From: Flavobacteriales bacterium
GTDB taxonomy: Bacteria > Bacteroidota > Bacteroidia > Flavobacteriales_F > PHOS-HE28
Assembly: GCA_016704485.1 (NCBI GenBank)
Contig: JADJAA010000001.1
Location: forward strand, 1,554,824-1,618,823
Reading direction: 5' to 3'
DNA length: 64,000 bases
The notes below the pieces were generated by a model that saw only the letters and a list, made by a program, of their open reading frames with translations, was not told where the DNA came from and did not search any database. Both the position numbers and the translations under genes were made by a program. This document shows positions 24,275 through 44,886 of this stretch, piece after piece. How positions within the stretch are numbered: the first letter of the stretch is position 1; each line of letters begins with the position of its first letter.

Positions 24275-24302
24275 TATGTCCGTGCTGCGTGATCCTCTTC
24301 CG

Positions 24303-27004: not shown

Positions 27005-27017
27005 GGGGTGAAGATGG

Positions 27018-28226
27018 TCAATGTTTGGTGATGGTGGTAAATTCCCATTTAGACTGTCCGTTCAGTTCGACTTGTTTGACTTGGCCGGAAACGAGGTCGC
27101 CATCCACAAGGCTGTGTAGTTTTATCAGATCCTTGTTGATGTAGGCATCGCCAGCATGGGCGTAGGTGTTATCGTTGCGTTTCTTGACCACGACGCGGCC
27201 CAGTTCTTTGGTATCACCGTCGAGTAGGGGAACTCCGTCGCTGCCTACCGCTTCCTCGTGTAGCCAGGTTCGGTTCGCCTTGGGGTCTGGATACTTTGCT
27301 GCGAACTTCTTGAACCAGACCAACACGTCCATGAGCTGGAACACGATGGTGCTCAAGAGGTAAGGCGTTACACCATGCTCGTGTAGTGCTTCGAGATTGT
27401 CCAAGCTGTAATTGGAATCCTCAGCGGTCTCGTCCGCATGCGAGCTTTCGCTGGTTACCCGCAGAATATTGTCCAGTGCATCGGCAACGATCCGGGGCAT
27501 CATCGGGCGGTCACACTTCAAGGCCACCGTGGCCGAAGAACGGCTCGGATAAAGCACGCGCTCGCCCCGCAGGAACAGTGCTGACAAGCGTTGGTTGACC
27601 CTCGGCTTTACAAGGACATCGGGTAGTAACCCGTGCCGATGCGCGGCATAGAAGAAGTGCTCCACTACCTGACGCAAAGGATTCATGAATAAGCGATCAC
27701 TACCGGACTTGTCCCCGCGATCCACAAAGCGCAATGCGTCCATGAACATAGGGTCGGCAACGGCATCCAAATAAGGAACTTGGAGCACTGCGAACACATC
27801 GGCATACCTATCACGAAGCGCTTGCTCGTTGCTTCGATCAACAAGGCTCTGTAGTTCCGCGTATAGGTCCTTCTCGTTCCCTTTCAAGTACCGCCGCTCA
27901 TCACGACGGTTCTTTGTTGCACCTTCGTCAAAGCCGGTATTGATCACATACGGAATATGAATGTTCGCTCCTTTCCATTGGTCCAGATCCCTGCGGGCTT
28001 CATGCAGGTGGTCGATGTCCTCGGTGGGTGAATGTTCATCCACCTGCCCTCTGGCATCGAGGATCAAGGCTTTGAAACGCTTTTCTCGGATCGGTTCCTT
28101 AGCCTCGGCCCAGGTCTTGAACCAAGTCACTTCGAAACCGTGCGCGACCGCCTTAGCAATTTGGGCTTTGGCGTATGCTTCATCGTCATCTACTAAGGCG
28201 ATCGGAACCAGGTCAAACAGTGTCAT
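27018..28226 (-). CDS. Receiver (REC)-domain protein with DUF4145/HEPN-like middle domain and C-terminal beta-rich domain
   Basis: ATG 28226 gives MTLFDLVPIALVDDDEAY...FKALILDARG...IPYVINTGF, a REC-like acidic pocket, Asp and Thr. The middle region NPLRQVVEHFFYAAHRHG ... LDNILRVTSESSHAD parallels RRALERTVHWLY ... YIRRTGNAAAHDK in the HsdR N-terminus (Rx4-6H). 14-nt overlap with the upstream kinase gene. Confidence 0.6.
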   Translation of the reverse strand: MTLFDLVPIALVDDDEAYAKAQIAKAVAHGFEVTWFKTWAEAKEPIREKRFKALILDARGQVDEHSPTEDIDHLHEARRDLDQWKGANIHIPYVINTGFDEGATKNRRDERRYLKGNEKDLYAELQSLVDRSNEQALRDRYADVFAVLQVPYLDAVADPMFMDALRFVDRGDKSGSDRLFMNPLRQVVEHFFYAAHRHGLLPDVLVKPRVNQRLSALFLRGERVLYPSRSSATVALKCDRPMMPRIVADALDNILRVTSESSHADETAEDSNYSLDNLEALHEHGVTPYLLSTIVFQLMDVLVWFKKFAAKYPDPKANRTWLHEEAVGSDGVPLLDGDTKELGRVVVKKRNDNTYAHAGDAYINKDLIKLHSLVDGDLVSGQVKQVELNGQSKWEFTTITKH

Positions 28227-30909
28227 GCGAAATGGGAAGGTCAATGGTGAAGTGGACAAACATTTGAGTGGATACAGCTTCCCGGTCAAATGGTATCCAA
28301 TGATTCTCGTCTATACGTTGATCGCGTTCAAAACTCGATCGGTACTTGTCATCGCTCACTGGCAGGTTACCCGACACGAACTTTCCGCCGTGGTTGGCAA
28401 TGATCCGATCGATCAGATAGCCGCCTATGCCATTGCCCTTTTTCATGTCCAGACGCTTGCCAAAGGTGATGAAGTGCTCATGGGTAAAACCTTCCGGAAA
28501 GGGTTTGCCGTTGTTCTCGATGGTGATAACCAATCGCGTTCGTTGAGGTTCAATACGCGTTGATACCCTCACCCGTACGACCAATTGTTCCTGATCCGAT
28601 CGAAGGCCGTGTTTGGCCATATTGATGAACAAGTTCTGGATGACAAGTGCGAACTGTTGTTGATCGACATGTGCGATCACTCCTTCAGTGGTTTCTAGTC
28701 CAGCTTCACATTCGAAAATGACCATAAGCGCTTTCACCTGGTCGGCAAGTCCGCGCAATTCCGTTCGGAACAGTCGACGAAGGTCGATGGGCACTGGTCT
28801 TAGACTCTCCTTATCTGATCGGATCACCGCATTGATCAATTGAAAGAGACCGCGCATGCGATCCAATCCACTATTCATTGTATCTAGGGCGGTGGTGATC
28901 GTAGACTTTTCAACTGGGCCCAAACTGTTGAGTACTGCATGGATCTCGGCCATGGGTTGCTCCAGAAGCGCCACCACCGGGCGGAAGCTGTGCTCCACTG
29001 CACCAAGGATCTGCCACTCATCAGTGGAGAGGCCATGCTGTTTTTCCTGCCTAGCGATCTCCTCCTTCTTCGCCAATAGAATGGATTCCTTCCGTTCGCG
29101 AACAATGCGCAGTTGATCCTTGAGTTCGGGTAAGCGAACCCGAATTCTCAGAACGTCTGCTTTGGCTATGAAAGCGATCGTACTTCCTTGGTGGTATGCG
29201 TCGAGCTGATCTTGGATCGTGGGCGTTCTTAGTTCTGTTGCGAGGTATTCGGTATTAGCACGAGCCGCATCCACACGGAACATGAATACATTGCTTCCCA
29301 CGGCGATCGGTCCATCTACCGGGTCGAATAAGGTCGGCTTCAACTTTCCGCCCACCCGTGCAAGTAGCAGTGCTGGCACATCCAATCTCTTCAGTCCCTT
29401 CTTGACAGAACCGGTTTCATGTTGCCCATCACGCGCCGTGCGCCTCATGTCGAGGACATCCGTTGAAAGCTCGGAGACCTGGAAGAGCGGCAGACCGGCG
29501 AGGTCGCCCATGGAGAGGATATCGTCCGAAAGCACGGTGCCGAGTTCAACCACGTCCACACCATCCGCTTCGGCCACGATATGGGCTTGTTGAAGCAGGC
29601 TGGCAAACCGACTCATGCTCCAAGACACATGCTCGTCGGAACGGATGTCAGAAACCTTCACGTCCAAAACACCTTGTAAGGTATAAGTGCTATCCAACGC
29701 CTGCAGCACGCTGCTAACATCGAGTGTTATTTCGGATCGCGTCTTGTATGTGACATGCAAACCCGCATCCACGAATCGGACAGGCGCATTCGTTGGCCGT
29801 GATCCATTCAAAACAATGATCGAGGTCTTTATCCCTGAGTAGGGTGTGAAGGATCCTGCTGGCAACGAGATCACTGCTTCGAGCAACCCTAGGTCAAGAA
29901 TCTGTTTGCGTAGATGCGCTCTGTTGATGCCGAACAACATACTCTCGGGCACAAGGATCACCGCCTTCCCCTCGGGTGCAAGCCGCTTGAGGATCTGGTT
30001 GATCGCTATCTCATAGGGTTCTATCGCGCGTAGCCTTCCTTCCTCTTTCACTCGACCACCGAAAGGTGGTGCACTAATGCAATGCGTATACTTCTTGTTG
30101 GAAGCACCGGGTGCTGATGGTTCGTTCAAGGCGGCGTTCAGGTCTGCCCCGAGAATACGTGCTTGCAGCGTATTGAAGAAGAATGCGAATTGGTTGAAGA
30201 ATACCGCGTCGAGCTTTACAGAATGTGGCGCACGCGCTGCGAGCACTGCTGGCAATACGCTCGCATCCGCAGCTGGGTCGAATACCTCTTCCACGTCTCC
30301 GAGCAGCCGCGCCATAAGCATTGCAACGGACCATGGCGTACAGAACTGGCCCATGTGACTATCGCGCAAGAGGAGGCTACGCATTTCTTCCACATACTCG
30401 ATCGGTTCCAAACCCGCTGATGCCATGAGAAAAAGCTCAGTTTGTACTGGGCTTGTTGCCAGTGCGCCGCCATTTTTAAGAAGATACGAATGCTGCTCCC
30501 CAAAGTCCTTAAACTCCTCTGCCAATTCATTCAAGGTGGACCATAATCCTTCTCCTCTTTGAGCGATCGTAGGCAACACTCCTGCTGGGCGCACGGCCAA
30601 GGCATAAATGAGTGCCAGCTCCAAGCCAACGGTCTGCGCGAAGGGCATGGATCGTAGCGCATTGCGCAATTCCCATGCGTGGGCCTGAAAAAAACGGACC
30701 CGGTTCAACATACGTTCTGGATCCAACTGTAAACTACCGTCATCGGATATACTAACACGCCCACCAGACAACTCCACCTCAGCAAGCAAGCTCGATGGCT
30801 CAACGTCCTTCTGGCTCAATAAGACCTTGACGATATTACAGACACCCTCCAAAGTATCCGAGCCGTTCTTCAGGCGAAGGGCACATATTATGGCGTCTAT
30901 CAGTTTCAT
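28213..30909 (-). CDS. Chimeric sensor histidine kinase: HsdM-like N6-MTase fold (degenerate motifs) + HsdS-like TRD + DHp/HATPase_c
   Basis: MTase-like: GQFCTPWSVAMLMARLL, VFDPAADASVLP (motif I lacks GxG), HCISAPPFGG (Ala where N/D/S is expected), KAVILVPESMLFG...LLEAVISLPAGSFTPYSGIKTSIIVLN. TRD-like: VELGTVLSD...LLLARVGGKLKPTLFD...VGSNVFMFRV...YLATELRT. Kinase: H-box GAVEHSFRPVVALL, N-box VIQNLFINMAKHG, ITIENNGKPF, GNGIGGYLIDRII. Confidence 0.7.
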   Translation of the reverse strand: MKLIDAIICALRLKNGSDTLEGVCNIVKVLLSQKDVEPSSLLAEVELSGGRVSISDDGSLQLDPERMLNRVRFFQAHAWELRNALRSMPFAQTVGLELALIYALAVRPAGVLPTIAQRGEGLWSTLNELAEEFKDFGEQHSYLLKNGGALATSPVQTELFLMASAGLEPIEYVEEMRSLLLRDSHMGQFCTPWSVAMLMARLLGDVEEVFDPAADASVLPAVLAARAPHSVKLDAVFFNQFAFFFNTLQARILGADLNAALNEPSAPGASNKKYTHCISAPPFGGRVKEEGRLRAIEPYEIAINQILKRLAPEGKAVILVPESMLFGINRAHLRKQILDLGLLEAVISLPAGSFTPYSGIKTSIIVLNGSRPTNAPVRFVDAGLHVTYKTRSEITLDVSSVLQALDSTYTLQGVLDVKVSDIRSDEHVSWSMSRFASLLQQAHIVAEADGVDVVELGTVLSDDILSMGDLAGLPLFQVSELSTDVLDMRRTARDGQHETGSVKKGLKRLDVPALLLARVGGKLKPTLFDPVDGPIAVGSNVFMFRVDAARANTEYLATELRTPTIQDQLDAYHQGSTIAFIAKADVLRIRVRLPELKDQLRIVRERKESILLAKKEEIARQEKQHGLSTDEWQILGAVEHSFRPVVALLEQPMAEIHAVLNSLGPVEKSTITTALDTMNSGLDRMRGLFQLINAVIRSDKESLRPVPIDLRRLFRTELRGLADQVKALMVIFECEAGLETTEGVIAHVDQQQFALVIQNLFINMAKHGLRSDQEQLVVRVRVSTRIEPQRTRLVITIENNGKPFPEGFTHEHFITFGKRLDMKKGNGIGGYLIDRIIANHGGKFVSGNLPVSDDKYRSSFERDQRIDENHWIPFDREAVSTQMFVHFTIDLPISHDTV

Positions 30910-30971
30910 GCAACGGGGGTCAAAGTAAGCGGTGGAGGGTTATGGTGTAGATGTGTTTGCAGGTTATGATC

Positions 30972-32234
30972 TCAAGCGACTTTCTCCAGTCGGTTTGTCG
31001 GCAGAAGTTGGGCAGCCATACGATCCATGACCTCCCATTCCGGACGTGTGTACGAGTTGCTCTCCGTGACCACCGGGATCCTGAATTCGCCCATGGCATC
31101 CTCGCGCATAGCCCATTGATCCTTCTGGTCGTAGAGCTTTGTTCCGGGCAAAAGCATCAGCGGCCAAGCCTTAACGTCCCTGCAGCCTTTGGATAAGAGG
31201 TGGTCGATACTACGCTGGAAACTTTCCAAGGTCTGTCCGGGCAACCCGTAGATCAAACTCACTTCGAAAGGAATCTCGCGCTCCACAAGCTGTTCAATAG
31301 CAGCATCGACAAGATCCATCCGATTGGCGCGGTCAATTTTCTTGGACACTGCATGGTCCGTGGTCTGCAACCCGAACTCCAAGTGGAAGTTGGCTTGCGT
31401 ACAAAGGTCCAGGAATGCATTAACCTGTTGGCCTCGGATATTCTCAAAGCGCGATTGCAGGGTGAAGGTGGAGCGCGTACGGAGTTGAACGATCTCTTGC
31501 ATTATATCCAGGCACTCCTTCCCAGCGTTGAAGATGGGGTCGAGTATGTTCACGCGTTGCACACGATGTTCAGTGAGAAATGCTAACTCTTTAAAGACTT
31601 TATCCAGTGGGTGCTTATGCACGCGGTGAGTGGCGAGGTCGCGGTGTGCGCAAAATGAACACCGGTAGGGGCAGCCGCGTTTGGTCTCCAACCGTACCAT
31701 ACCGGCTCCCATTGGTACAGGCAATTCGCCAGTGAGATACGGTGAGGCCAGTTGTGTGAAGTCCACTGGTACGTTCACGAACACGGGTTCGTCGGCATCG
31801 AGATGGTCCGTCAATTCGGCAAAGGCTTGTTCGGCTTGTCCGGAGATGAAGACCTGGCAATCCGGATACCGACGCAGCAATTCTGCTCGGTTCCCGTAGG
31901 TGACTTGATACCCTCCGAGGACCACCTTGCCAAGGAACCCAAGACGACGAAGCAATGCGATGATGCCATTGGTGAGGTACTCGTTCCAGATGTAAGCCGA
32001 GAGCGCGATGGCGTTAAAGCGGCTCACATCAAGCGCCGCGAGTTGCACTTCGAATTGCTCGGGTGTGGCCGTGCCGCCGTGTTCGAGCATGTTGATCGAG
32101 AGGTGTTCCACGTGCATCTGTCCACGCAGCCGTTCATTACTCCGTTGGTGTGCCAAGAGAGATGCGATCGCCAAGGGCTTGGTGATCTCACCGTGCCGGA
32201 TCAGGTCGAAGGATATGATGAGCGTGTTCGTCAT
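30972..32234 (-). CDS. Radical SAM enzyme with N-terminal B12-binding-like domain
   Basis: ATG 32234 (MTNTLIISFDL...). Rossmann-like N-terminal domain VVLGGYQVTY. CxxxCxxC cluster in ETKRGCPYRCSFCAHRD. Confidence 0.8.
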   Translation of the reverse strand: MTNTLIISFDLIRHGEITKPLAIASLLAHQRSNERLRGQMHVEHLSINMLEHGGTATPEQFEVQLAALDVSRFNAIALSAYIWNEYLTNGIIALLRRLGFLGKVVLGGYQVTYGNRAELLRRYPDCQVFISGQAEQAFAELTDHLDADEPVFVNVPVDFTQLASPYLTGELPVPMGAGMVRLETKRGCPYRCSFCAHRDLATHRVHKHPLDKVFKELAFLTEHRVQRVNILDPIFNAGKECLDIMQEIVQLRTRSTFTLQSRFENIRGQQVNAFLDLCTQANFHLEFGLQTTDHAVSKKIDRANRMDLVDAAIEQLVEREIPFEVSLIYGLPGQTLESFQRSIDHLLSKGCRDVKAWPLMLLPGTKLYDQKDQWAMREDAMGEFRIPVVTESNSYTRPEWEVMDRMAAQLLPTNRLEKVA

Positions 32235-32343
32235 TGGTCCTCGCCACCAAGGGTCTATATGGTTGGATAATCGCTCAACCAACGAACTTCCCTATGGCAA
32301 CGGACCAAAAGTCCCGGTCACCTGTGCAGTCTATCTGCACAGT

Positions 32344-33354
32344 TCATTTCGCGTAGTTCTTCTTCATTTCCATCACCCGCAAAAGCAGCGCTTGGCGTAG
32401 TTCTTCCGGCGCAATAACCTGTAGCCCTTCTCCATAAGATAACAACAAGGCTTGTAGCTCGTAGTTCAGCTTCACTTCTAAACGAATAGTCGCGCCGCCG
32501 TCTTTTCTCTTCACTACTTTCTGCGAACCGTGTATAGGCTTTGACTCCAAATAAGGCCAAAGTCTATCCGTGACTTGGATCTTGACAACAACAGCTTCTT
32601 GATCCGCAGGTACACTTACACCAACAACATCCTCAAAATACTCCGTGAAATCCACCTCATCGTTCGGTATGTATTTCACCTTACTGGGTACAATATCCCG
32701 GATCCGGTCCAAGGCCATATTGACAATACGCCCCTCTTCCTCAAGACCAAAAACAAACCAACGGTTGTTATACTGTTTCAAGTAATACGGATGGAGCAAC
32801 ACAATGCTAGGCGCATTTTGCTTGAAGCCTTGGTAAGATATTTCCAAGGCTTGCTCATTGATGATCGAATGAAATAATGTGGTAATGTGCTCGGCACCTT
32901 TCAAATACGGGTTCTGCTCAAACTCGATGACCTGAGCAGCCCCTTGTTTCAGCCCGAAACCAGCTTCCAACCGAGCAACTAATTCATCTACCCATTCAAA
33001 CTGCGGCATGCCCTTAAATCGGCTCAGCGTTAAGAGCGCCTCCTTCAATTGTTCCGCTTCGCTCTCGTTCAGCGGTCGCTTGTTGATAGAGAATTCAAGG
33101 TCACTGTACCGGTAAAAAGTACGCTTTCCGTCTTTGTGTTTCTCCAGCGGGATAGCCCATCCTTGTTCGCTCTCCATGTACTTGATGTCCTCGAAAACTT
33201 GGCGGCGGCTGATGCTTGCACCTGCTCCGGTGAACTCCTCCAACGCCATGTTGCAAGCTTCCATCAGGTCTTCGATGAAATACTCGCGCCCACGGTTCGC
33301 AAAGCAACGGTCCATTGTCTGATAGCGAATAAGGGCATTCTTATTTACGGGCAT
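32344..33354 (-). CDS. WYL-domain transcriptional regulator (BrxR/CapW-like layout: wHTH + WYL + C-terminal domain)
   Basis: N-terminus MPVNKNALIRYQTMDRCFANRGREYFIEDLMEACN. WYL core VLLHPYYLKQYNNRWFVFG...NMALDRIRDIV. It is the first gene of the minus-strand operon. Confidence 0.8.
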   Translation of the reverse strand: MPVNKNALIRYQTMDRCFANRGREYFIEDLMEACNMALEEFTGAGASISRRQVFEDIKYMESEQGWAIPLEKHKDGKRTFYRYSDLEFSINKRPLNESEAEQLKEALLTLSRFKGMPQFEWVDELVARLEAGFGLKQGAAQVIEFEQNPYLKGAEHITTLFHSIINEQALEISYQGFKQNAPSIVLLHPYYLKQYNNRWFVFGLEEEGRIVNMALDRIRDIVPSKVKYIPNDEVDFTEYFEDVVGVSVPADQEAVVVKIQVTDRLWPYLESKPIHGSQKVVKRKDGGATIRLEVKLNYELQALLLSYGEGLQVIAPEELRQALLLRVMEMKKNYAK

Positions 33355-33489
33355 CTCGGGTGGCTGAAATTAGGGCTGAACGGTGTTACCAGCCTCGTCT
33401 TTTATGGTCCTTCAGAAATACAAAAAACGGACTAATGCTTCTGCGCTCACTTTTCAAAAATCAATTGCATAGAGCAAATTAATCTTCCG

Positions 33490-33904
33490 CTGCCAGCTGG
33501 GTGGTAACCTGCACCAAGCTTGATGGTACCACACACCAAGCTTAGTGGTACCCTGTGCCAAGCTTAGTGGTACCTTGCACTAAGCTTGATGGTACCCTGC
33601 ACTAAGCTTAGTGGTACCCTGCACTAAGCTTAGTGGTACTCTGCACTAAGCTTAATGGTACCCTGCACCCAGTTGGGTGGTACCCTCCACCCAGCAGGGT
33701 GGTACCCTGCACCCAGTTGGGTGGTACCCTGCACTAAGCTTAGTGGTACCCTGCACTAAGCTTAGTGGTACTCTGCACTAAGCTTAATGGTACCCTGCAC
33801 CCAGTTGGGTGGTACCCTGCACCCAGTTGGGTGGTACCCTGCACCCAGTTGGGTGGTACCCCGCACTAAACTTAATGGTACCCGACACCAAGCTCAATAG
33901 TGCA
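33490..33904. repeat. Tandem array 1: about 19 contiguous 22-bp units, each carrying a 14-bp palindrome plus GGTACC
   Basis: The units are CTGCACTAAGCTTAGTGGTACC (core CACTAAGCTTAGTG) or CTGCACCCAGTTGGGTGGTACC (core CACCCAGTTGGGTG). Units at 33597-33728 are repeated at 33729-33860 as a 132-bp (6-unit) higher-order repeat. Edge units are degenerate. Confidence 0.95.
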
Positions 33905-33993
33905 TTCCATTGATCTTGAGGGAGTTCACCTGAACCAGCATTGCGCTTGTGCCTCGGGAACTTGAGGAAGTAAAAGGTGAAATGGTCCGCTAT

Positions 33994-34202
33994 CTATACC
34001 ATACTACTATAGGGCACATTGAACCTTAGTCTGGACTTCCGCCTTCGGAACTGCATTCGCTGCCAGATGATCATTGGGGTGCAATTATCCCAAACCTATA
34101 CCATATTACTATAGGGGGCATAAGCCTCCATCTCCGGCTCGTGAACTTTGGAGGTAAAGATGGTGTGATTTGACCTACTACCTATACCATATTACTATAT
34201 GG
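33994..34202 (+). promoter_or_regulatory. Three dispersed copies of a 21-bp element CTATACCATA(T/C)TACTATA(G/T)GG
   Basis: Copies at 33994-34014, 34096-34116 and 34182-34202, with starts 102 and 86 bp apart, all in the same orientation. Two copies end in ACTATAGGG, identical to positions -6 to +3 of the T7 promoter consensus. Function is unknown. Confidence 0.5.
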
Positions 34203-34291
34203 TGCTTTGCACCGTGCGCCTCGTGGTGCACACTTGTGGTTCAGAACTGCTTCATGTAGGCCTGGTGCAAGAGGCTGTATTTGTTCCATTG

Positions 34292-34753
34292 GTACATGGC
34301 CTTGTCCCGTAAGTACATGTACTTGTGCCTTTGGTACATGTACTTGTCCCGTGAGTACATGTACTTGTCCCGTAAGTGCATGTACTTGTCCCGTGAGTAC
34401 ATGTACTTGTCCCGTGAGTACATGTACTTGTCCCGTAAGTACATGTACTTGTCCCGTAAGTACATGTACTTGTGCCGTTGGTACATGTACTTGTCCCGTA
34501 AGTACATGTACTTGTGCCGTTGGTACATGTACTTGTGCCGTTGGTACATGTACTTGTGCCGTGAGTACATGTACTTGTGCCGTGAGTACATGTACTTGTC
34601 CCGTAAGTACATGTACTTGTGCCGTTGGTACATGTACTTGTCCCGTAAGTACATGTACTTGTCCCGTAAGTACATGTACTTGTCCCGTAAGTACATGTAC
34701 TTGTCCCGTAAGTACATGTACTTGTGCCGTGAGTATGTGTACCTGTACCATGT
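34292..34753. repeat. Tandem array 2: about 22 contiguous 21-bp units built on the palindrome GTACATGTAC
   Basis: Units are GTACATGTACTTGTCCCGTAA, with variants ending ..GTGCCGTTG, ..GTCCCGTGA and ..GTGCCGTGA. Adjacent units form GTACATGTACTT-GTCCCGT-AAGTACATGTAC, a 12-bp stem with a 7-nt loop. The period is a multiple of 3, so all six frames appear open. Confidence 0.95.
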
Positions 34754-35042
34754 GTAACGATACTTCAAGTTACAGTACACTTACTTGATACAGAGGTGCT
34801 TATGCCATTGCGTGGGGTATGCCTGCTTGTAACACGGGGACTGATAACCCACTCAGCGTCAGGCGTAAAGAGTGATCCGAACGTTGCCCGTGCTGCATAA
34901 CCCATCCTCGAGCGGCCGCGTGCGGGCTACAGTAAATGAAAAGAACCCCGGCCAGTTGTGCTAGGATTCTTCCGTTCGGGGATGGTGTATGAGTGGCAGG
35001 GTCGTCTGCTATGCGGCAGACTGACCCTGAGCGGGTTTAAAA

Positions 35043-35327
35043 ATGCGCCGCTGCACTACGCAATGGGTAGCGGATGCGCAGTTCGCTTACCTGGTGGACC
35101 CCGCATCGCCCGAAGCGGAACTTCCGCACAAAGCAACCCTCTTGGTGCACTGCCCGGAACGCGGCGAGATCCGGCTGAATATATTGTCCAACGGTTCCAT
35201 CGCCGAACTACAGTTCACGGACTGCTATGAACCGATGTCCAGAACCACCAGCATAGCAGAAGAATCCGATCCGATGTCTCCTTTTACCGTGGTACATCGG
35301 CATTGGGATCACGGCAGTGAGGTGTAG
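35043..35327 (+). CDS. Possible 94-aa hypothetical protein
   Basis: It is the only ORF in the 2.1-kb gap with ordinary amino-acid composition (…DAQFAYLVDPASPEAELPHKATLLVHCPERGEIRLNILSNGSIAELQFTDCYE…). A strong plus-strand terminator follows 22 nt later. It has no homolog I recognise. Confidence 0.3.
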   Translation: MRRCTTQWVADAQFAYLVDPASPEAELPHKATLLVHCPERGEIRLNILSNGSIAELQFTDCYEPMSRTTSIAEESDPMSPFTVVHRHWDHGSEV

Positions 35328-35348
35328 GTGTGCCCCTCATTTGAATGG

Positions 35349-35384
35349 AACGACCCCGCTGTTTTTGCTGGGTCGTTTTTTTTG
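35349..35384 (+). terminator. Rho-independent terminator
   Basis: AACGACCC (35349-35356), 13-nt loop, GGGTCGTT (35370-35377), followed by a T run. Confidence 0.7.
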
Positions 35385-35457
35385 CTGGGGGGCGCGAGAG
35401 ACGAGCTTCCATTCTTGCAGACCATGGATCAATGGGCATTGGATGGAATGTAAATTG

Positions 35458-36426
35458 TCAAGCCTTTATGAACTCGTTCACAAAAGCTTGTACAAATTGC
35501 TTGGCTAAAGCAGAGTAAGGCTTGGTCGGCTCTGTCAGTTGCATCAGCAATTCCACCTCTTGCTCGATCATCGCCTCAATTGTTCCTGTGGTCTTTTTTA
35601 CAAGTTTGTTCAATGTACGTGTTGGTACTTTATCCTTGAATGATCTGATATCCTTACCGATCTCGTTCGATAGGTCGATCAATTTCAAGATCATCTCAAA
35701 ACGCATTTTTAATCGCAGAATGTATTCTCTGCGCATATCGACCAACCCCTTTCTATTCAAGCCGTAGATCTCAATGGAACGGATCGCTTTTTGCCAATGG
35801 ATCTCCCTTTTTATCACGTTCTCTGATGAGGGCAAAGCAATGGCCTTCATTACTCCTGAGTCATCGTATTCCAAGTATTTGCTAGGTTCGTCCGTACAAG
35901 GGTTCAACAACAAACATTGTTCGCCTGAAATATCGAACAGCGGCGCACTCGCACGCATTGTTTCATCAAACAATGGAAAAGAGTTTGCCTTTCCTTGTTT
36001 TAGCTTTTTCCATTGATAGGACCCATCTATGGGGTTCTTTCGATACACATATTGATAGCGCGCTCTATTGCAGTCTATGCATGAAGGGAGTAGATTATCC
36101 CATTCCATTGCGAGCTTAGCATATACACCTACTTTAGTTTCGGTCTTGTTCGTCAATTCTACGAGCACTTCGGATTTGGGTCTGAAATGCTCAATATCCA
36201 GCGGTTGTGTGCGCGTGTAAGGTGATTCGCAATATGCACATTTACCATGGAACATAAGCTCCAACAACTCAGGCACTTTTTCGTGCTTGTAAAGCTTGAA
36301 ATCGGGCTTTAGGTCCTTGTGGAAATCGCTTCGAAGCCATGCTTCCACCTCTTCCTTTTCTTTGTTGAAGGCATCCGAGGTTATGGTAAGTGCCTGCGGG
36401 GCATTTACGCGTTTTCGTTTGATCAT
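35458..36426 (-). CDS. PtuB-like HNH endonuclease (TIGR02646-type)
   Basis: HGKCAYCESPYTRTQPLDIEHFRPKSE...WDNLLPSCIDCNRARY, followed by LLLNPCTDEPSKYLEYDDSG. It starts 8 nt downstream of the ATPase gene. Confidence 0.75.
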   Translation of the reverse strand: MIKRKRVNAPQALTITSDAFNKEKEEVEAWLRSDFHKDLKPDFKLYKHEKVPELLELMFHGKCAYCESPYTRTQPLDIEHFRPKSEVLVELTNKTETKVGVYAKLAMEWDNLLPSCIDCNRARYQYVYRKNPIDGSYQWKKLKQGKANSFPLFDETMRASAPLFDISGEQCLLLNPCTDEPSKYLEYDDSGVMKAIALPSSENVIKREIHWQKAIRSIEIYGLNRKGLVDMRREYILRLKMRFEMILKLIDLSNEIGKDIRSFKDKVPTRTLNKLVKKTTGTIEAMIEQEVELLMQLTEPTKPYSALAKQFVQAFVNEFIKA

Positions 36427-36434
36427 TGAAGAGC

Positions 36435-38822
36435 TCAGTTGTTCAGGCGCCAGGAAGCATCCGTTAAAGCCTCTATTATCTTCTTAGTGGGTTTGGGAAA
36501 TCGTACGTTGGTCGGTGACTTCATCAAGTGCTCATCGATCAGCCTCAACAAGTACATATCACGCCGACTACTACCGAGAATGCTCTTTCTGTTGAGTCGT
36601 TCATGTAGATCCTTCAGTTGTGCCTTACCCGAATCATCTAACGCCGATGCCTTCGCTATGAGGTTGTAATAGCGGTCAAAGAATTCAGCTGTGCGCGGGT
36701 CCAGGGTTGTACTTAATCCGAATAATTCTGAGGTAAGGAGCTGGTCGGAACGTAAGCCAGCCGGCGAATCCATGTCGTCGTGTACTGTAGCCATGGAAGG
36801 GTCGTCCACATTTCTCTTGACCAATGCTACTTCACCAGCACCCAGCCCATGCAGGCATAGTGGCTCATGGGTGCTCGCGATGAATTGGATAAGCGGAAAT
36901 GTCTGTTCCAATCTTCTTAAGATGCTCATGCGCCAACTCGGGTGCAGATGTGCACCGATCTCATCAATTAGTACCACGCCTCTAATTTGATGCGTATCCG
37001 TTGGATTGCCTGCCATTATATCACAGGCTAGACCAACCATGGTCTTGTAACCCGCACTAAAATGCTTTAAGCGGGTGAATGACCCGTTCACGAAAAGCCC
37101 GAATTGTGTTGGCTTGTTGTTTTCAAATTGAAAGTCGAGACGTGTAGAATTATCTGTAAGATCCAGCAGGTCCTTCAAGGCCACACAAACATCGAAGAAC
37201 TGCTGTTGATTCTTTACCACTATGGTACGTAACCACTCTTCGGCATCTACCATGGGATAGAACGGGTCAAAGAGGTTCTGGATGTTCTTATTCACTCCCC
37301 TTTTCTCTAACAGATCAGAACTCTTGCCTTTTTGCGGCAGCAATCGAACAGGCCCGTATGCACGAAGAAATATATTCGGGACCTCACCTTGCTCCCATTT
37401 TAATCCGCTATTCGTGATGTTCACTACGATAGGATCTGTTCGCTGATGAAAGTAGACTTCAATTCTACCTGACGTAGCTCCACGCCTCAAGCTAGTGCTG
37501 AAATGCTCCTTCATCTTACTCAAGGCTTTCTTGCCGCTGAGTATCAATGCAAGTGCTTCGAGCAGCGAACTTTTTCCTGACCCGTTCTCACCCAGCAGCA
37601 TTTTCCAACCGCTGTGTCGAAAGGTTTCCTGTTGTGGAGATTCGGAGCCGTTTTCGTCGATCGTCTTCCGGCGTTCCTCTTGATTGCCTCCCGCTGTTTC
37701 CGTGTTCAAGTCTAAGTTCAGTTCACGTTCTGTGTCTACTAGGTCTTTCGGGCGTTCTTGGGGGATCAAGAATACAGCCTTCTCGAAGATCCTGTAATTC
37801 TCAACTATTAATTTGCTAATGGTCAGCGCTTGATGCGCGACTTTCTCCTTGGACGGCGCATTCTCTGTGGCGGTTTTCGGAGGAGTTCTTTGCGCCTCGG
37901 AACTCGTCTTCTTTGGAGACTCCTTATTAGCGCGTGTTGATCCCGGTTTCGTACGCGCTCCGGTCTCAGCTTCTAATAAGGACCCAGGCTTATTGAGCCC
38001 TTTGCTTATTGTTTCGACGTGCAGGCCGTCGCCTTGAATGAGGATTTTTAGTCCGAAGTCCTCCTTAAGAACATGGTTACTCAGATTCCGCATTGGACTT
38101 TGCGGGTCTATCAGTCCTTTCAAGAAGTGATCTTCTTCTACGGTTCGAGGTAGTTTCTCACCCTTTTTTTTAAGAACCAGAGACTTTGTCAAGTCGCGAA
38201 CTCGGTGAACCATATCACTCCTTCTATTGATGGCGGATTTCCGGTTCAGGTCCAGAGTTTCAATGGTCACCTCGGCTCGTCGCTTCTGCATGTGCCCTAA
38301 AGTGGAACGAGGCTTTATCATTCCATTAGATGAATAGTCGAAGTACTCCTCCGGATCGTCTTCATAAGGATTCAGCAAATACGGTTCTTCTTTCTCGAGC
38401 GCACTCCCCCGAGGCTGGTCATCAGCATGCTTGATAGGAACACGTTTTCCGGCGATGGGAAACTGTGCTCCCTTTGCAAAACTGCACTCATTGCATATGG
38501 GTAGCATGTTCTGCCAATCAAACAATAGCCACCAATAGTGGTCGCCAACCTGCTCATTTGGTTCCACTTTTACCGGTCGGTACAGGTCGATGTGTACCGT
38601 CTTTTCATTCAAGGGTGCTTCGCAATACGCACATGCATTATTGGAGGTTTCCAGAAGATCTCGGTTTACATCACGAGAATACTGTGGAGCCTTGTGTCTT
38701 ATCTGGCTTCGCTTCTCTAAAGGTTGCGCATAAAACTTCCGAAGTTCATTGAACGTCTTCTCTCCTTCCGTACTGTACTGTAGGTCTGGTGGAGATACTT
38801 TACTTCGGTTCAGTTTTCTCAT
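36435..38822 (-). CDS. Fusion of a PtuB-like (HNH-derived) N-terminal domain to a PtuA/AAA_15-type ABC-like ATPase
   Basis: N-terminus NNACAYCEAPLNEKTVHIDLYRPVKV...WQNMLPICNECSFAKG. Low-complexity linker (KPGSTRANKESPKKTSSEAQRTPPKTATENAPSKEK). Walker A LLGENGSGKSSLLEAL. Walker B VVLIDEIGAHLHPSW. FIASTHEP. Confidence 0.75.
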   Translation of the reverse strand: MRKLNRSKVSPPDLQYSTEGEKTFNELRKFYAQPLEKRSQIRHKAPQYSRDVNRDLLETSNNACAYCEAPLNEKTVHIDLYRPVKVEPNEQVGDHYWWLLFDWQNMLPICNECSFAKGAQFPIAGKRVPIKHADDQPRGSALEKEEPYLLNPYEDDPEEYFDYSSNGMIKPRSTLGHMQKRRAEVTIETLDLNRKSAINRRSDMVHRVRDLTKSLVLKKKGEKLPRTVEEDHFLKGLIDPQSPMRNLSNHVLKEDFGLKILIQGDGLHVETISKGLNKPGSLLEAETGARTKPGSTRANKESPKKTSSEAQRTPPKTATENAPSKEKVAHQALTISKLIVENYRIFEKAVFLIPQERPKDLVDTERELNLDLNTETAGGNQEERRKTIDENGSESPQQETFRHSGWKMLLGENGSGKSSLLEALALILSGKKALSKMKEHFSTSLRRGATSGRIEVYFHQRTDPIVVNITNSGLKWEQGEVPNIFLRAYGPVRLLPQKGKSSDLLEKRGVNKNIQNLFDPFYPMVDAEEWLRTIVVKNQQQFFDVCVALKDLLDLTDNSTRLDFQFENNKPTQFGLFVNGSFTRLKHFSAGYKTMVGLACDIMAGNPTDTHQIRGVVLIDEIGAHLHPSWRMSILRRLEQTFPLIQFIASTHEPLCLHGLGAGEVALVKRNVDDPSMATVHDDMDSPAGLRSDQLLTSELFGLSTTLDPRTAEFFDRYYNLIAKASALDDSGKAQLKDLHERLNRKSILGSSRRDMYLLRLIDEHLMKSPTNVRFPKPTKKIIEALTDASWRLNN

Positions 38823-38823
38823 C

Positions 38824-40638
38824 TTAACTATGTGCTATTCTGTGGAACGTGTTCGCCAAATAGTGCTTCGGGTTAGTCCTGGCGATCAGGTCGAATTGTG
38901 CTTCGCTCAGGCCGGCCAGCATATTGGCATAGAGCTCCTTTTCTGATAGGTGGTTCCTCACGACAAAAAAGTCTGTACCGAACAGGACCCGTTCACCGAG
39001 TTTCTTCACTGAATGGTCGATCGTCTTTTTCAGTAACGGTTGTATCCACGGATCGTGCAATATGTAACTGATATCTGCATAAACGTTCTCATAGCGCAAC
39101 ATCATACTGCAAATGATCGTGTACCAGTCAGCTTCCATCCAGTGAGCGTAGACACGTGTCCATTGGATGCGCTTGTGTTCGTTGTCATAATACGATCGAT
39201 GAAATAATCCGCTTTCAGCATGCAGGTTCAGATCTTGGTTGTACTGGTCATTATCGGCTTCTAAATGTCGTTTCCATTCATCAACACCACCAAAATGTGC
39301 CAAGCAGATCTTCAATTGAGAAAGTGATCGGAATTTTTCATCGGGACCTTTTTCGAACAACGTTTGAATTCGGGGTTGGCAGCTCACGAGGTGCTCCCTC
39401 AAGAGGTCATCATCCAGCAGGCAGAGGTAGTTCAATGGATGTGTGTAGTTCTTTTGAAAGTCGATTCCGCGAAGTTCCAACAGGTCAATGGGTGCGATCA
39501 CCGTATCGTCATGTGCGTCCTCTATTCCGGTTGAACGCTTGAAGACAGGATGCTTTGCCATTTCATCAGTGATCTTGTCTCGGGAATATATTGTGCCATG
39601 CACGCAATGGGTCATGATCGGTAAACCTTCCTGAGCTGCATACGCCCACACGGGCAATAGGTCTTCATCGAAAGGATAATAACCTAAAGCCGGGTAGATC
39701 TTGAATCCGCAGCAACCATTGCTTAGATACTTCTGGACTTTACATTCAAGCAAGACTACTTTACCGTATTCTACTTTCCACTTGAAGAAGTCATCCTCTT
39801 CACGAATTCGGCGTGGATCAATGAAGATGAAAGGCAGTATTTGATGTCCATGATCTTCACCTTTGGTAAGTTTTACAAGCCCTTCCATTTGTTTGTGGAA
39901 ATCACCTAATCGGTGGACCTTCCCCGCACCCATGTATTTCATATCCATTGGTAGAACAATGAATTTGGTTTCGGCTGGGTACTGGGCCCGGAGTTTTTGA
40001 AAGAGTAGACTTAGTCGCCTTTGGTCATCACCGGTTTTCGCACTTTTCGTCTCGTAACCATAAGAGCTGAAGCGTGCGATAAGTACGTATCGCTCCAAAA
40101 GGTCCATGTACTCCGTAGCAGGAAAGCTCTTGATCATTGGAACAAACTTTTGTAGAAGGAACCAGATCTGTCTTCGAACGGCTGGGATGAATGCAATAAT
40201 TGCTGCTACGAATATGGTCTTGATCGCCCAGTGTAATTCATGAAAGTATAATTTATACTTTACAAGTAACGCCAAGAACGCCGCGATATATTTCGACCCG
40301 CCATAGAAGGTGCTTTCAACCAAAACTTCATAAAGGAATAATAACACATAGATCGTAACGATCAAATTAAACGCACCTCGTACAAACTTCAAGAAGCTGT
40401 TTCGTTGGATCCTGTTCTGCGCCTTTACCTTGTTTATGCGTATGGTTTCTTGTGCCGGTTCATACCGCTCGGCATACTTCCGTCGGTTGCACTTCACGTA
40501 AAGTTTCATGAAGTAATCCATTCGCGCCCACTTGTACAACGGCCACGGAAGAATACCCTTTGCATGCTCTGGAGGCACGTGATAGTTGTTGAACAAGTGC
40601 ACGTGGCAGTTCACTATGGGGTCCTTCACTTTACTCAT
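38824..40638 (-). CDS. Amidohydrolase-superfamily (Amidohydro_2-like TIM barrel) protein with an inserted block of about 3 TM helices
   Basis: Metal ligand candidates: VNCHVHLF, GFKIYPALGY, IMTHCVHG, CLAHFGG, LFGTDFFV. A hydrophobic insert at about aa 85-165 (FLKFVRGAFNLIVTIYVLLFLY, YIAAFLALLV, IKTIFVAAIIAFIPAV). Its stop is 1 nt from the ATPase start. Confidence 0.7.
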   Translation of the reverse strand: MSKVKDPIVNCHVHLFNNYHVPPEHAKGILPWPLYKWARMDYFMKLYVKCNRRKYAERYEPAQETIRINKVKAQNRIQRNSFLKFVRGAFNLIVTIYVLLFLYEVLVESTFYGGSKYIAAFLALLVKYKLYFHELHWAIKTIFVAAIIAFIPAVRRQIWFLLQKFVPMIKSFPATEYMDLLERYVLIARFSSYGYETKSAKTGDDQRRLSLLFQKLRAQYPAETKFIVLPMDMKYMGAGKVHRLGDFHKQMEGLVKLTKGEDHGHQILPFIFIDPRRIREEDDFFKWKVEYGKVVLLECKVQKYLSNGCCGFKIYPALGYYPFDEDLLPVWAYAAQEGLPIMTHCVHGTIYSRDKITDEMAKHPVFKRSTGIEDAHDDTVIAPIDLLELRGIDFQKNYTHPLNYLCLLDDDLLREHLVSCQPRIQTLFEKGPDEKFRSLSQLKICLAHFGGVDEWKRHLEADNDQYNQDLNLHAESGLFHRSYYDNEHKRIQWTRVYAHWMEADWYTIICSMMLRYENVYADISYILHDPWIQPLLKKTIDHSVKKLGERVLFGTDFFVVRNHLSEKELYANMLAGLSEAQFDLIARTNPKHYLANTFHRIAHS

Positions 40639-40766
40639 TTTTGATCCAGTGCGTACTGATCACTTATAGAGATCTTATGATGCCAGTACTATCGGTCAGA
40701 AATGCATTGACTTGCCACCACATTATTGTGATGGCTCATGGTCGAATGGAACGTAAATCTGTGGAG

Positions 40767-41864: not shown

Positions 41865-41884
41865 ATACTTTTCAGTTCAATTAT

Positions 41885-42676: not shown

Positions 42677-42708
42677 TTTTTTGAGGAATTTGTTGACTTA
42701 AGCTTCGT

Positions 42709-43362: not shown

Positions 43363-44091
43363 AAGTCACGAGAGGATGATCTGCTCACAATACCCAGTTA
43401 CAGGTATTCTGATATTACAGCTGGATATGTTTATAGTAGAAACCAAGTTGAAGCCGACGTTAAGCAGTGCAAATGGTACGCATGCGCATTCGGGCTTTAA
43501 TACCTCCCGCCCATTCCCATCCAAGAAACTTCTATCGATCCATTGTGCATTCATGTGGTACTTCTTGTTGGTGTTACACAAGTACTTCTTCCACCACGTC
43601 GCAGGATCATGTGCGGGTTCTTCTGTCAGCAGGCCAGGAACCCATGATCGGTGTGATCAACTTCTTTGCAAAGGCGAAATAAGCGCATTGTTGAATGCGC
43701 CTACTCCCGAAAAACCCTAGGGTACTACTCCCGAAAAATCATAGGGGTGGAGACCTATACTAACAGTGCGGATTGTCGCGGAAAATGTGTATTGCGTTCT
43801 GCGCGTTGCGATGAATTCGTTGTGCTTTTGTGCAGGATACGATCAGGTACATAGAGGGGAATATCCAAGTACAGCAATGGTTATCGGTGGTCGGTCGGTT
43901 ACGGCTTGGCGTTGTGCAGGAGGTTGCATGGTGCATTACGCGCTTTCGTTGGGTTGCATTTTGTCGGGAGATCCGTAACATAATTTCTGGAATAGCACTG
44001 CGTGTTTTTCGGGAGTACCCCCCTATGAAAAACACGCAGTGCCACCTCGAACGGGGCCGGTACTTTGGCCGCCAGAATAGAACCACATTCC

Positions 44092-44865: not shown

Positions 44866-44886
44866 ACGCATGCGGTTCCTGCACAT

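What the first reader, a model, noticed from the sequence alone, without database searches (positions are those of the whole stretch)
33490..33904. Array of about 19 contiguous 22-bp palindromic units just upstream of the WYL-led operon
Each 22-bp unit carries a 14-bp palindrome plus GGTACC. The palindrome is CACTAAGCTTAGTG, or CACCCAGTTGGGTG with a single central mismatch. The two unit types alternate in blocks, and a 132-bp six-unit block (33597-33728) is duplicated at 33729-33860. A 22-bp period is about two helical turns, so every palindrome faces the same side of the DNA. That geometry is used by plasmid centromere and iteron arrays for cooperative binding. WYL regulators such as BrxR and CapW are known to bind palindromic operators near their own genes, and the array begins about 135 bp upstream of the WYL start codon. 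It could be an operator array, a centromere-like site, or a hairpin RNA array.
Basis: partly seen in the sequence, partly recalled or inferred. Interest (0 to 1): 0.6.

Follow-up and report, generated by a model that had tools for sequence, protein, structure and literature searches.

The report
Orphaned phased palindromic DNA repeat arrays
The 22-bp palindromic array is real, but it is not a feature of the WYL defence operon: it belongs to a previously undescribed class of fast-changing, helically phased repeat arrays that in related Flavobacteriales sit in front of a conserved fn3-domain gene, and here that gene has been lost.

Summary
The array is confirmed: 19 contiguous 22-bp units at 33487-33904, reproduced in independent assemblies including megabase contigs. 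It is half of a larger 1.69-kb non-coding block. The WYL link is not supported. More than 80 homologous WYL-led operons have short upstream regions with no arrays and no shared operator. Arrays of the same architecture do recur elsewhere. They have a period of 21, 42 or 63 bp, span 220-470 bp, and each has its own 10-14-bp core. They lie 170-310 bp upstream of a conserved ~205-aa fn3-domain gene in 8 of 9 related loci, one of them elsewhere in this same genome. A NarL/LuxR-type response regulator gene is often adjacent. In one close pair of genomes, that regulator's recognition helix diverges together with the array. In this window the regulator and fn3 genes are absent and the next gene is 5'-truncated at 35043. 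My best reading is an orphaned, phased multi-site binding platform for a dimeric HTH regulator. Binding itself is inferred, not shown. Centromere, iteron, phage-decoy, restriction-site and known-RNA readings found no support.

The parts
33487..33904 (.). Array A1: 19 x 22-bp units, consensus CTGCAC[TAAGCTTA or CCAGTTGG]GTGGTACC, with degenerate edge units
33597..33860 (.). Two copies of a 132-bp six-unit higher-order block (33597-33728 and 33729-33860), 129/132 identical
33355..33486 (-). 132-bp stretch between A1 and the WYL start codon; presumed WYL promoter region. It is 98% identical in a strain whose WYL protein is only 84% identical
32344..33354 (-). WYL/WCX regulator gene (BrxR-like), first gene of a conserved defence operon (radical SAM PDC-M51A, MTase-HATPase fusion, ~400-aa protein, HsdM, HsdS)
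33994..34014 (+). 21-bp motif copy 1, CTATACCATACTACTATAGGG
   Evidence: a related motif lies after the regulator gene in L262
34096..34116 (+). 21-bp motif copy 2
34182..34202 (+). 21-bp motif copy 3; overlaps the only sigma-70-like promoter match in the region (TTGACC-17-TACTAT)
34292..34753 (.). Array A2: ~22 x 21-bp units, GTACATGTACTTGT[C/G]CCGT[AA/GA/TG]; core palindrome GTACATGTAC x19, extended AAGTACATGTACTT x9
35043..35327 (+). 94-aa ORF that is the C-terminal two thirds of a 138-160-aa protein family. Homology to the intact gene in L260 begins exactly at 35043, so the gene is 5'-truncated; this marks the right edge of the block

Best explanation
A1 is one of two tandem arrays in a 1.69-kb non-coding block (33355-35042) between the WYL-led defence operon and a truncated gene. 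It belongs to a lineage-specific class of rapidly turning-over arrays. Their period is 21 bp or a multiple of it (two, four or six helical turns), they span 220-470 bp, and each is built round its own conserved core of about 10-14 bp, usually dyad-symmetric, with variable linkers. In related Flavobacteriales these arrays sit 170-310 bp upstream of a conserved ~205-aa fn3-domain gene, at the edge of defence islands. In 4 of the 9 loci a REC+GerE (NarL/LuxR-type) response regulator gene lies immediately upstream of the intergenic region that holds the array; one of the four, L260, has only two palindromes there. A fifth locus, L266, has such a regulator three genes downstream of fn3. The most likely mechanism is a phased multi-site binding platform: one dimer of a sequence-specific HTH protein per unit, all on one face of the helix, controlling the downstream fn3 operon. 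The best candidate binder is the adjacent response regulator. In this window the regulator and fn3 genes are absent, so the arrays are orphaned. They are either a relic, or still bound by a regulator encoded elsewhere and only incidentally next to the WYL promoter. What is shown: the arrays, their period, the synteny, the hypervariability, in-phase core conservation, and divergence of the regulator's recognition helix. What is inferred: protein binding, the identity of the binder, and any regulatory effect.
For: Arrays with periods of 21, 42 or 63 bp lie upstream of fn3 homologues in L014, L182, L262, L265, L266, L267 and L268. L260 has two 18-bp palindromes and weak 21/42-bp autocorrelation. 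That makes 8 of 9 loci, against roughly one comparable non-fn3 array per 1.07 Mb of control DNA; the Poisson probability is about 6e-22. L265 is in the same genome as the window, about 690 kb away on the same contig, and has a different unit. Synteny ties the window to this module. L014 and L182 read WYL operon, regulator, array, fn3. L260 and L262 read defence genes, regulator, gap or array, fn3, 160 aa, 155 aa, then the same two-component operon as window 44065-46961. The two-component regulator is 99% identical between the window and L260. The window's 94-aa ORF is the truncated 155-aa gene. The window's 21-bp motif has its only other match in 1.38 Mb of held DNA just after the regulator gene of L262. 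Evidence for selection on phased cores: in L265, CTCATGATCATG is kept at exact 42-bp phase over 15 unit positions, and in the distal third of that array the linkers have diverged beyond recognition while several cores remain intact. Most arrays show a contiguous conserved core plus variable linker. A1 keeps its dyad symmetry through compensatory changes. Evidence for co-divergence: the L260 and L262 regulators are 85% identical overall and 93% over residues 1-120, but differ at 10 of 20 positions in the GerE recognition helix (Fisher p = 1.3e-4). The whole intergenic region between them is non-homologous although the flanks are 87-90% identical.
Against: No binding data exist. A1 has a 22-bp period, not 21 bp. 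No fn3 or adjacent regulator gene is present in the window, so membership rests on synteny and a short motif. L265, L267 and L268 have arrays but no adjacent regulator. No array core recurs in the regulators' own promoter regions. No core motif is shared across arrays, and some arrays (L266, L267) are not clearly palindromic. The co-divergence argument rests on a single pair of genomes. The close relative L260 manages with two sites, so long arrays are dispensable. Only 9 loci with DNA could be examined, all from metagenome assemblies.
Confidence: 0.45

Rival explanations
1. WYL (BrxR-like) operator array: dimers of the adjacent WYL regulator bind the A1 palindromes cooperatively to repress or buffer expression of the defence operon.
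For: A1 starts 132 bp from the WYL start codon and is dyad-symmetric. In L269 the first array units, the promoter and the WYL N-terminal part are 97-100% identical to the window, while the C-terminal sensor domain falls to 59-75%. In L182, four CAAGCTTG palindromes lie within 370 bp upstream of the WYL gene, resembling the AAGCTT core of A1.
Against: More than 80 homologous operons have no array and no A1-like palindrome upstream, although the HTH region is conserved. Experimentally defined BrxR operators are 10-11-bp inverted repeats separated by 5 bp (PMC9122601). The same kind of array occurs without any WYL gene (L262, L265, L267, L268). A2 and the three motifs are not explained.
Confidence: 0.12
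2. Functionless minisatellite: the arrays arise and are homogenised by slippage and unequal exchange in a hypervariable intergenic region, and the 21-bp period is simply inherited from an ancestral array.
For: There is higher-order repeat structure and a near-perfect 132-bp duplication. Copy number differs between assemblies (10 versus 19 units and 14 versus 22 units in L005). Sequence is completely replaced between close relatives, and L260 has no long array. No motif is shared across loci.
Against: Arrays are kept in 8 of 9 loci across fn3 proteins only 47-66% identical. In L265 the core is conserved in exact phase while the distal linkers have diverged. Symmetry-preserving double changes occur in A1. 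Comparable arrays are very rare in 1.07 Mb of control DNA.
Confidence: 0.2
3. Transcribed repeat RNA: the arrays are transcribed and act as hairpin arrays, as a long regulatory leader, or as a type III antitoxin-like repeat RNA. For A2, transcription would start at the promoter-like site at 34170-34198 and run towards the 94-aa ORF.
For: There is a sigma-70-like promoter match upstream of A2 on the + strand. The segment 34198-34291 folds unusually well (z = -3.6). The A1 units could form 5-bp stems with 4-nt loops, and loop positions vary (AGCT, AGTT, AGCA). A conserved hairpin-like element precedes the fn3 start codon in relatives.
Against: There is no Rfam match above noise. Short palindromes such as CATGATCATG form only marginal hairpins. 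The 94-aa ORF is a truncated gene of an unrelated family, not a known toxin. The organism is a Bacteroidota member, where the sigma-70 consensus scan is of doubtful relevance. No expression data are available.
Confidence: 0.1
4. Replicon or phage-related site: a plasmid or ICE centromere (sopC-like), an iteron origin, or a chromosomal decoy that titrates a phage initiator or repressor.
For: The architecture resembles F sopC (12 x 43 bp with a palindromic core), R6K and pPS10 22-bp iterons, and the dyad-symmetric lambda ori iterons; these comparisons come from my own knowledge. The location between two defence systems and the rapid sequence turnover would suit an arms race.
Against: The window is chromosomal, with BamA, UppS, NAD kinase, OmpH and T9SS-tail proteins, and the contig is 2.15 Mb. 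No Par, Rep, relaxase or integrase gene was found. There was no similarity to plasmid or phage records. Five IMG/VR scans with junction and palindrome 14-mers and the 21-bp motif gave only single-site hits of the number expected by chance, or none. fn3 homologues are absent from viral contigs.
Confidence: 0.07

Closest known systems
Plasmid centromere arrays such as F sopC (12 x 43-bp repeats, each with a SopB-binding palindrome)
   Same: Contiguous tandem units, each with a dyad-symmetric core. The period is a whole number of helical turns (42 bp in L265, L266 and L268; 21-22 bp here). Total length is about 0.4-0.5 kb. Sequence evolves fast, and there are hints of co-evolution with a DNA-binding protein.
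   Different: The locus is chromosomal, has no ParA or ParB partner genes, and there are at least two such loci per genome with different units. In relatives the arrays are tied to a downstream fn3 gene, not to a partition operon.
Iteron arrays of replication origins (R6K gamma ori 7 x 22 bp; lambda ori four dyad-symmetric 19-bp iterons)
   Same: The unit length is 21-22 bp, units are arranged head to tail, there is a conserved core plus variable spacer, and lambda iterons are palindromic.
   Different: There is no Rep or O-like initiator gene and no evident AT-rich unwinding element. Copy number (about 20) is far above typical iteron numbers. There is no similarity to plasmid or phage records.
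BrxR/CapW-type WYL regulator operators
   Same: Palindromic DNA lies close to the start of a WYL regulator gene that heads a defence operon.
   Different: Known operators are one or two sites of 10-11-bp inverted repeats with a 5-bp spacer (PMC9122601). Here there are 19 contiguous 14-bp palindromes, and they are not conserved in homologous operons.
NarL/LuxR (GerE-HTH) response-regulator binding sites, such as 7-2-7 heptamer pairs and lux-box or RcsB-box palindromes
   Same: The dyad-symmetric cores of 10-14 bp are of the size a GerE-HTH dimer recognises. A REC+GerE gene is next to the array in several relatives, and its recognition helix diverges with the array.
   Different: Known regulons use one to a few sites per promoter, not about 20 phased copies. 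No binding has been shown. The window itself lacks the adjacent regulator.

Membership tests
WYL/BrxR operator | Inverted repeats of about 10-11 bp separated by about 5 bp, between promoter and regulator gene | tested here: not met
   The A1 cores are contiguous 14-bp palindromes repeated every 22 bp and start 132 bp upstream of the start codon. Operator geometry is from PMC9122601.
WYL/BrxR operator | Site conserved upstream of orthologous regulators that share the recognition helix | tested here: not met
   No array or A1-like palindrome was found upstream of the WYL gene in L010, L012, L014 or the 80 genome loci. The HTH is conserved.
WYL/BrxR operator | Specific binding by the WYL protein | not testable with these tools
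   Needs EMSA or footprinting.
Plasmid centromere (sopC/parC type) | Tandem repeats with a protein-binding core | tested here: met
Plasmid centromere (sopC/parC type) | Adjacent parA/parB (or parM/parR, tubZ/tubR) genes on a plasmid or other mobile replicon | tested here: not met
   Pfam scans of the window's long ORFs found no partition genes. The contig is a 2.15-Mb chromosome piece with core genes. There was no plasmid match.
Iteron replication origin | Adjacent initiator (Rep) gene and an AT-rich unwinding region | tested here: not met
   No Rep gene was found (same Pfam scans). The sequence between the arrays has GC 0.47, similar to its surroundings.
Type III toxin-antitoxin repeat RNA (ToxI-like) | Tandem repeats directly upstream of, and co-oriented with, an endoribonuclease toxin gene | tested here: not met
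   The only downstream ORF is a 5'-truncated member of an uncharacterised 138-160-aa family with no Pfam or PADLOC toxin hit.
CRISPR array | Repeats separated by unique spacers of similar length | tested here: not met
   The units are contiguous, with no spacers.
Any Rfam RNA family | Covariance-model match at or near the gathering score | tested here: not met
   Only microRNA models matched, at 21-30 bits against gathering scores of 76-101.
fn3-upstream phased arrays (class defined here) | Period of 21 bp or a multiple, total length 220-470 bp, locus-specific conserved core | tested here: met
   A2 has a 21-bp period over 462 bp. A1 has a 22-bp period over 418 bp, one base off the class period.
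fn3-upstream phased arrays (class defined here) | Position 170-310 bp upstream of an fn3-family gene | tested here: not met
   tblastn finds no fn3 homologue near the arrays in the window, and the conserved element that precedes fn3 is absent. I interpret this as loss, because the next gene of the module is truncated at 35043.
fn3-upstream phased arrays (class defined here) | Synteny with the regulator - array - fn3 - 155-aa gene - two-component operon neighbourhood | tested here: met

The most novel reading that the evidence does not exclude
These arrays and the neighbouring LuxR-type regulator form a new kind of rapidly co-evolving pair: a DNA-binding protein and a roughly 20-site phased operator array. 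Such pairs are stationed at the borders of defence islands. There they could nucleate a protein filament that insulates or switches the adjacent genes, or titrate invading DNA-binding proteins. The window would be a natural 'array-only' variant whose arrays now flank the promoter of a WYL-controlled defence operon.
Probability: 0.15. Interest if true: 0.75.

Novelty: new variant of a known kind. Interest (0 to 1): 0.5.

Why it matters
If the arrays are phased multi-site platforms for a co-diverging regulator, they would be a chromosomal, regulatory counterpart of plasmid centromeres and iterons. About twenty binding sites would be kept in helical register while their sequence is replaced between close relatives. 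That gives a compact natural system for studying how a DNA-binding specificity and its target array change together. It also flags a recurrent landmark at the edge of defence islands in Flavobacteriales, useful for delimiting islands. On a practical level, not every palindromic repeat next to a WYL gene is its operator. These arrays also break short-read assemblies, so they are systematically under-sampled.

Tried and rejected
1. WYL operator conservation. I compared upstream regions of WYL homologues and found no shared palindrome. Only L182 has four CAAGCTTG sites.
2. Phage origin or decoy. Five IMG/VR scans used junction 14-mers, the 21-bp motif and the two perfect palindromes. They gave only isolated single-site hits or none, and never an array. 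blastn against phage and plasmid records gave no match.
3. Metagenome scan for GGTACCNNGCACNNNNNNNNGTGGTACC. It returned six unrelated single hits and did not even recover the known JGI contig. It therefore says nothing about other copies in this genome, and that question stays open.
4. Restriction-site decoy or methylation sink. The palindromic hexamers in the arrays are not avoided elsewhere in about 81 kb of this genome.
5. Known RNA families: none. Folding of the segments after the three 21-bp motifs showed only one unusually stable segment.
6. Coding repeats. The 22-bp period excludes a periodic protein for A1. The open frames across A2 are what a stop-poor 21-bp unit gives by chance, and the ORFs called in relatives' arrays start or stop inside the arrays.
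7. A universal core motif across all arrays: none. ACTTACG is shared only by A2 (reverse strand), L182 and L267.
8. fn3 protein as the binder. The AlphaFold model (pLDDT 89.5) shows an N-terminal helical bundle plus fn3, and fold searches match only the fn3 domain. The protein is too conserved (71% mean column identity) to track the changing cores.
9. Array cores in the regulators' own promoter regions: none.
10. L214 has a 22-bp array about 2.3 kb upstream of a WYL gene. It is non-palindromic and lies next to transposase-like ORF fragments (my reading of the translations, not a family scan), so I did not count it as related.
11. The L010 contig-edge repeat (GCAGGGTGTACC...) resembles reverse-strand A1 only over about 12 bases, and the rest of its upstream region is not homologous. 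I treat this as weak evidence.

Full report
**Observation**

The sequence shows 19 contiguous 22-bp units from 33487 to 33904.
- Tandem Repeats Finder reports 33501-33894, period 22, 17.9 copies, and a 132-bp higher-order period.
- The central units are CTGCAC-TAAGCTTA-GTGGTACC or CTGCAC-CCAGTTGG-GTGGTACC.
- The exact 14-bp palindromes occur 4 and 5 times, and GGTACC occurs 15 times. The six-unit block 33597-33728 is repeated at 33729-33860 with 129/132 identity.
- The junction motif occurs 15 times, all inside the array, against 0.18 expected.
- The two unit types keep their dyad symmetry through changes on both sides at two of seven positions.
- The array starts 132 bp from the start codon of a WYL/WCX regulator gene, 32344-33354 on the minus strand.
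- The identical array is present in five of the nine contigs fetched, three of them 0.8-2.15 Mb long. One megahit contig has 10 units, and several short-read contigs end in the neighbouring array.

So the feature is real and not an assembly artefact.

The array is only part of a 2.1-kb gap without convincing genes (33355-35457).
- A second array, 34292-34753, has about 22 units of 21 bp: GTACATGTACTTGT[C/G]CCGT[AA/GA/TG]. Its core palindrome is GTACATGTAC, often extended to AAGTACATGTACTT.
- Between the two arrays lie three copies of a 21-bp motif, CTATACCATAYTACTATAGGG, at 33994, 34096 and 34182.
- To the right is a 94-aa ORF (35043-35327), and beyond it a Septu PtuA/PtuB system on the minus strand.
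- To the left, the WYL gene heads an operon with a radical SAM protein (PADLOC PDC-M51A), an MTase-specificity-HATPase fusion, a ~400-aa protein, HsdM and HsdS. HsdR, GmrSD and a large helicase lie further on.
- The window is chromosomal Bacteroidota DNA, with BamA, UppS, NAD kinase, OmpH and T9SS-tail proteins. Sources name the organism a Flavobacteriales MAG from wastewater.

**Is the array part of the WYL system?**

The WYL protein has thousands of homologues, mostly in Bacteroidota.
- In the loci I fetched (L010-L015) and in 80 species-representative genomes, the same operon recurs. This was seen in the gene tables for L010-L015 and not re-checked gene by gene in the 80 loci.
- The region upstream of the WYL gene is usually about 110-140 bp or is occupied by another gene. 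It holds no tandem array and no common palindrome. The N-terminal HTH is nevertheless well conserved.
- Published BrxR operators are 10-11-bp inverted repeats with a 5-bp spacer (PMC9122601), a different geometry.
- One point favours a link. In L269, where the WYL protein is 84% identical, the first array units, the promoter stretch and the 5' part of the gene are 97-100% identical to the window. Divergence is concentrated in the C-terminal sensor part. This shows that the array side is the conserved flank of a recombining gene, not that the protein binds it.

**Where such arrays do recur**

Two WYL loci did have arrays: L014 (21 bp x ~21, core AAGGAATTCCTT) and L182 (21 bp x ~17, core GTAAGGCCTTAC).
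- In both, the array is separated from the WYL gene by a divergently transcribed REC+GerE response regulator gene, and it lies upstream of an fn3-domain gene.
- Homologues of the window's 94-aa ORF are 138-160 aa long.
- In L260 and L262 these homologues sit in the order: defence genes, REC+GerE regulator, 1.05-1.4-kb gap, fn3 gene, 160-aa gene, 155-aa gene. After a few more genes comes the same two-component operon as window 44065-46961.
- L260 is a very close relative of the window's organism; the two-component regulator is 99% identical.
- Homology between the window and L260 starts exactly at 35043, so the window's ORF is a 5'-truncated copy. tblastn finds no regulator, fn3 gene or 160-aa gene next to the arrays in the window.

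I then searched with the fn3 protein and fetched further loci.
- L265 has 42 bp x 9.6 units plus degenerate units. It is in the same genome as the window, about 690 kb away on the same contig, next to an MvaI/BcnI-type restriction-modification pair.
- L266 has 42 bp x at least 5 units at a contig edge.
- L267 has 21 bp x 18 units.
- L268 has 42 bp x 6.8 units.
- L262 has 21 bp x ~19 units in a 63-bp higher-order repeat.
- L260 has only two 18-bp palindromes and weak 21/42-bp autocorrelation.

Thus 8 of 9 fn3 loci with DNA have an array whose period is 21 bp or a multiple. The arrays span 220-470 bp and end 170-310 bp before the start codon. By contrast, 1.07 Mb around 80 WYL loci holds one comparable array not linked to fn3. 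The Poisson probability is about 6e-22.

The window's 21-bp motif has its only other match in 1.38 Mb of held sequence just after the regulator gene of L262.

**Signs of function**

- The unit sequences differ completely between loci, and no core is shared by all.
- The whole regulator-fn3 intergenic region is non-homologous between L260 and L262, although the flanking genes are 87-90% identical.
- Most arrays nevertheless have a contiguous conserved core and a variable linker.
- In L265 the core CTCATGATCATG is kept at exact multiples of 42 bp over 15 unit positions. In the distal third of that array the linkers have diverged beyond recognition while several cores remain intact.
- The L260 and L262 regulators are 85% identical overall and 93% over residues 1-120. 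They differ at 10 of 20 positions in the GerE recognition helix (Fisher p = 1.3e-4).
- By alignment to NarL from memory, the varying positions include base-contacting ones. That step is inference.

**Interpretation**

The best-supported reading is that these are phased multi-site binding platforms for a dimeric HTH protein. The adjacent NarL/LuxR-type regulator is the most plausible binder, and the arrays would control the fn3 operon. The window would then hold an orphaned pair of such arrays, left after loss of the regulator and fn3 genes.

Binding, the identity of the binder and any regulatory effect are all inferred. There are real weaknesses:
- A1 has a 22-bp period, not 21 bp.
- Three array loci have no adjacent regulator.
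- The co-divergence argument rests on one pair of genomes.
- L260 shows that a long array is dispensable.

I put this reading at 0.45. The rivals are a functionless inherited minisatellite (0.2), a WYL operator array (0.12), a transcribed repeat RNA (0.1), and centromere, iteron or phage decoy (0.07).

**Comparison with known systems**

In architecture the arrays are closest to plasmid centromeres such as F sopC and to iteron arrays (comparison from my own knowledge). They fail the defining tests for both: there are no partition or initiator genes, the location is chromosomal, and there is no similarity to plasmid or phage records. They are not CRISPR, since there are no spacers. They match no Rfam family. 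They are not a type III antitoxin array, since there is no toxin gene.

Two full-text searches found no description of such arrays. I therefore rate this a new variant of a known kind (phased tandem binding-site arrays) in a new genomic setting.

**Limits**

- All loci come from metagenome assemblies, and short-read contigs break in these arrays.
- The metagenome DNA scan failed to recover even a known contig, so I could not test whether A1 or A2 units occur elsewhere in this genome.
- The species itself was not retrieved in the genome collection; the best match was 68%.

Noticed in passing
window 34292-34753: A second, even cleaner tandem array lies 390 bp from the reported one: about 22 x 21 bp with core palindrome GTACATGTAC, 91% matches.
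   Followed up: yes
window 33994-34014, 34096-34116, 34182-34202; L262 5869-5890: Three copies of CTATACCATAYTACTATAGGG lie between the arrays, spaced 102 and 86 bp apart. The only other match in 1.38 Mb of held DNA is GGTACCATACTACTAAGGG, just after the regulator gene of L262. The 3' part (ACTATAGGG) resembles the T7-type promoter core from memory, but no phage-type RNA polymerase gene was seen.
   Followed up: partly
L269 versus window 32344-33354: Between strains, the WYL regulator is a mosaic. The promoter and the N-terminal HTH part are 90-100% identical at the DNA level, the C-terminal WYL/WCX sensor part drops to 59-75%, and the last 100 bases are again 100% identical. This suggests recombination or diversification of the ligand-sensing domain.
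   Followed up: partly
L260 4868-5569 versus L262 5119-5814: Two 85%-identical REC+GerE regulators differ at 10 of 20 positions in the HTH recognition helix, while the intergenic DNA next to them is entirely non-homologous.
   Followed up: partly
window 23477-33354 (minus strand): The WYL-led operon has a radical SAM/B12-like protein (PADLOC PDC-M51A, E = 7e-117), an 898-aa N6-MTase + specificity-like + HATPase fusion, a ~400-aa protein with no Pfam family meeting its cut-off, then HsdM and HsdS. The same order is seen in L010-L014. It may be a distinct type I R-M-associated defence system.
   Followed up: partly
window 35458-43362 (minus strand): Septu PtuA (795 aa) and PtuB (322 aa) lie downstream of, and on the same strand as, an Amidohydro_2 protein, a 365-aa protein of unknown function, a papain-like peptidase and an SH3+CHAP protein. 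In L260 different genes occupy this position, so it is a second variable island.
   Followed up: no
window 43701-43746 and about 44003-44017; L260 10495-10540; L262 11711-11757: A 24-bp direct repeat, CTACTCCCGAAAAACCATAGGGTA x2, plus an inverted partial copy (TTTTTCGGGAGTA), lies upstream of the 266-aa / HisKA_3 / REC-GerE operon and is conserved in relatives. It is probably that two-component system's own operator. Its junction, AGTAGTACCCT, resembles the AGTGGTACCCT of array A1.
   Followed up: partly
L260 6625-6645, L262 7191-7211, L265 about 9967-9987, L266 about 444-464, L267 about 6964-6984, L268 about 6964-6984, L014 about 4540-4565: A conserved, partly dyad-symmetric element, GTGTCCGGAATTCACCGGCACA, lies about 15-20 nt before the fn3 start codon, with G-U-compatible variants. 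It could be a leader hairpin or an operator. It is absent from the window.
   Followed up: partly
L265 6508-8718: In the window's own genome, the second array locus abuts an MvaI/BcnI-type endonuclease and a C5 DNA methylase carrying an N-terminal Arm-DNA-bind_5 domain, an unusual fusion.
   Followed up: no
window 34198-34291 (+ strand): The segment between the third 21-bp motif and array A2 folds much better than shuffled controls (-38.2 kcal/mol, z = -3.6). It is a possible small structured RNA or terminator region.
   Followed up: no
window outside the arrays plus L265 (about 81 kb): GATC is over-represented (808 observed versus 575 expected from a Markov model). The palindromic hexamers tested were all at or slightly below expectation.
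   Followed up: no
window 50712-52367: A DDE transposase (DDE_Tnp_1_6 / DUF772) lies within the variable region to the right of the two-component operon.
   Followed up: no
L182 5077-5293: Four CAAGCTTG palindromes lie in the divergent regulator-WYL intergenic region of a Cryomorpha MAG, the last two 21 bp apart. This is a candidate operator cluster for one of the two regulators.
   Followed up: partly
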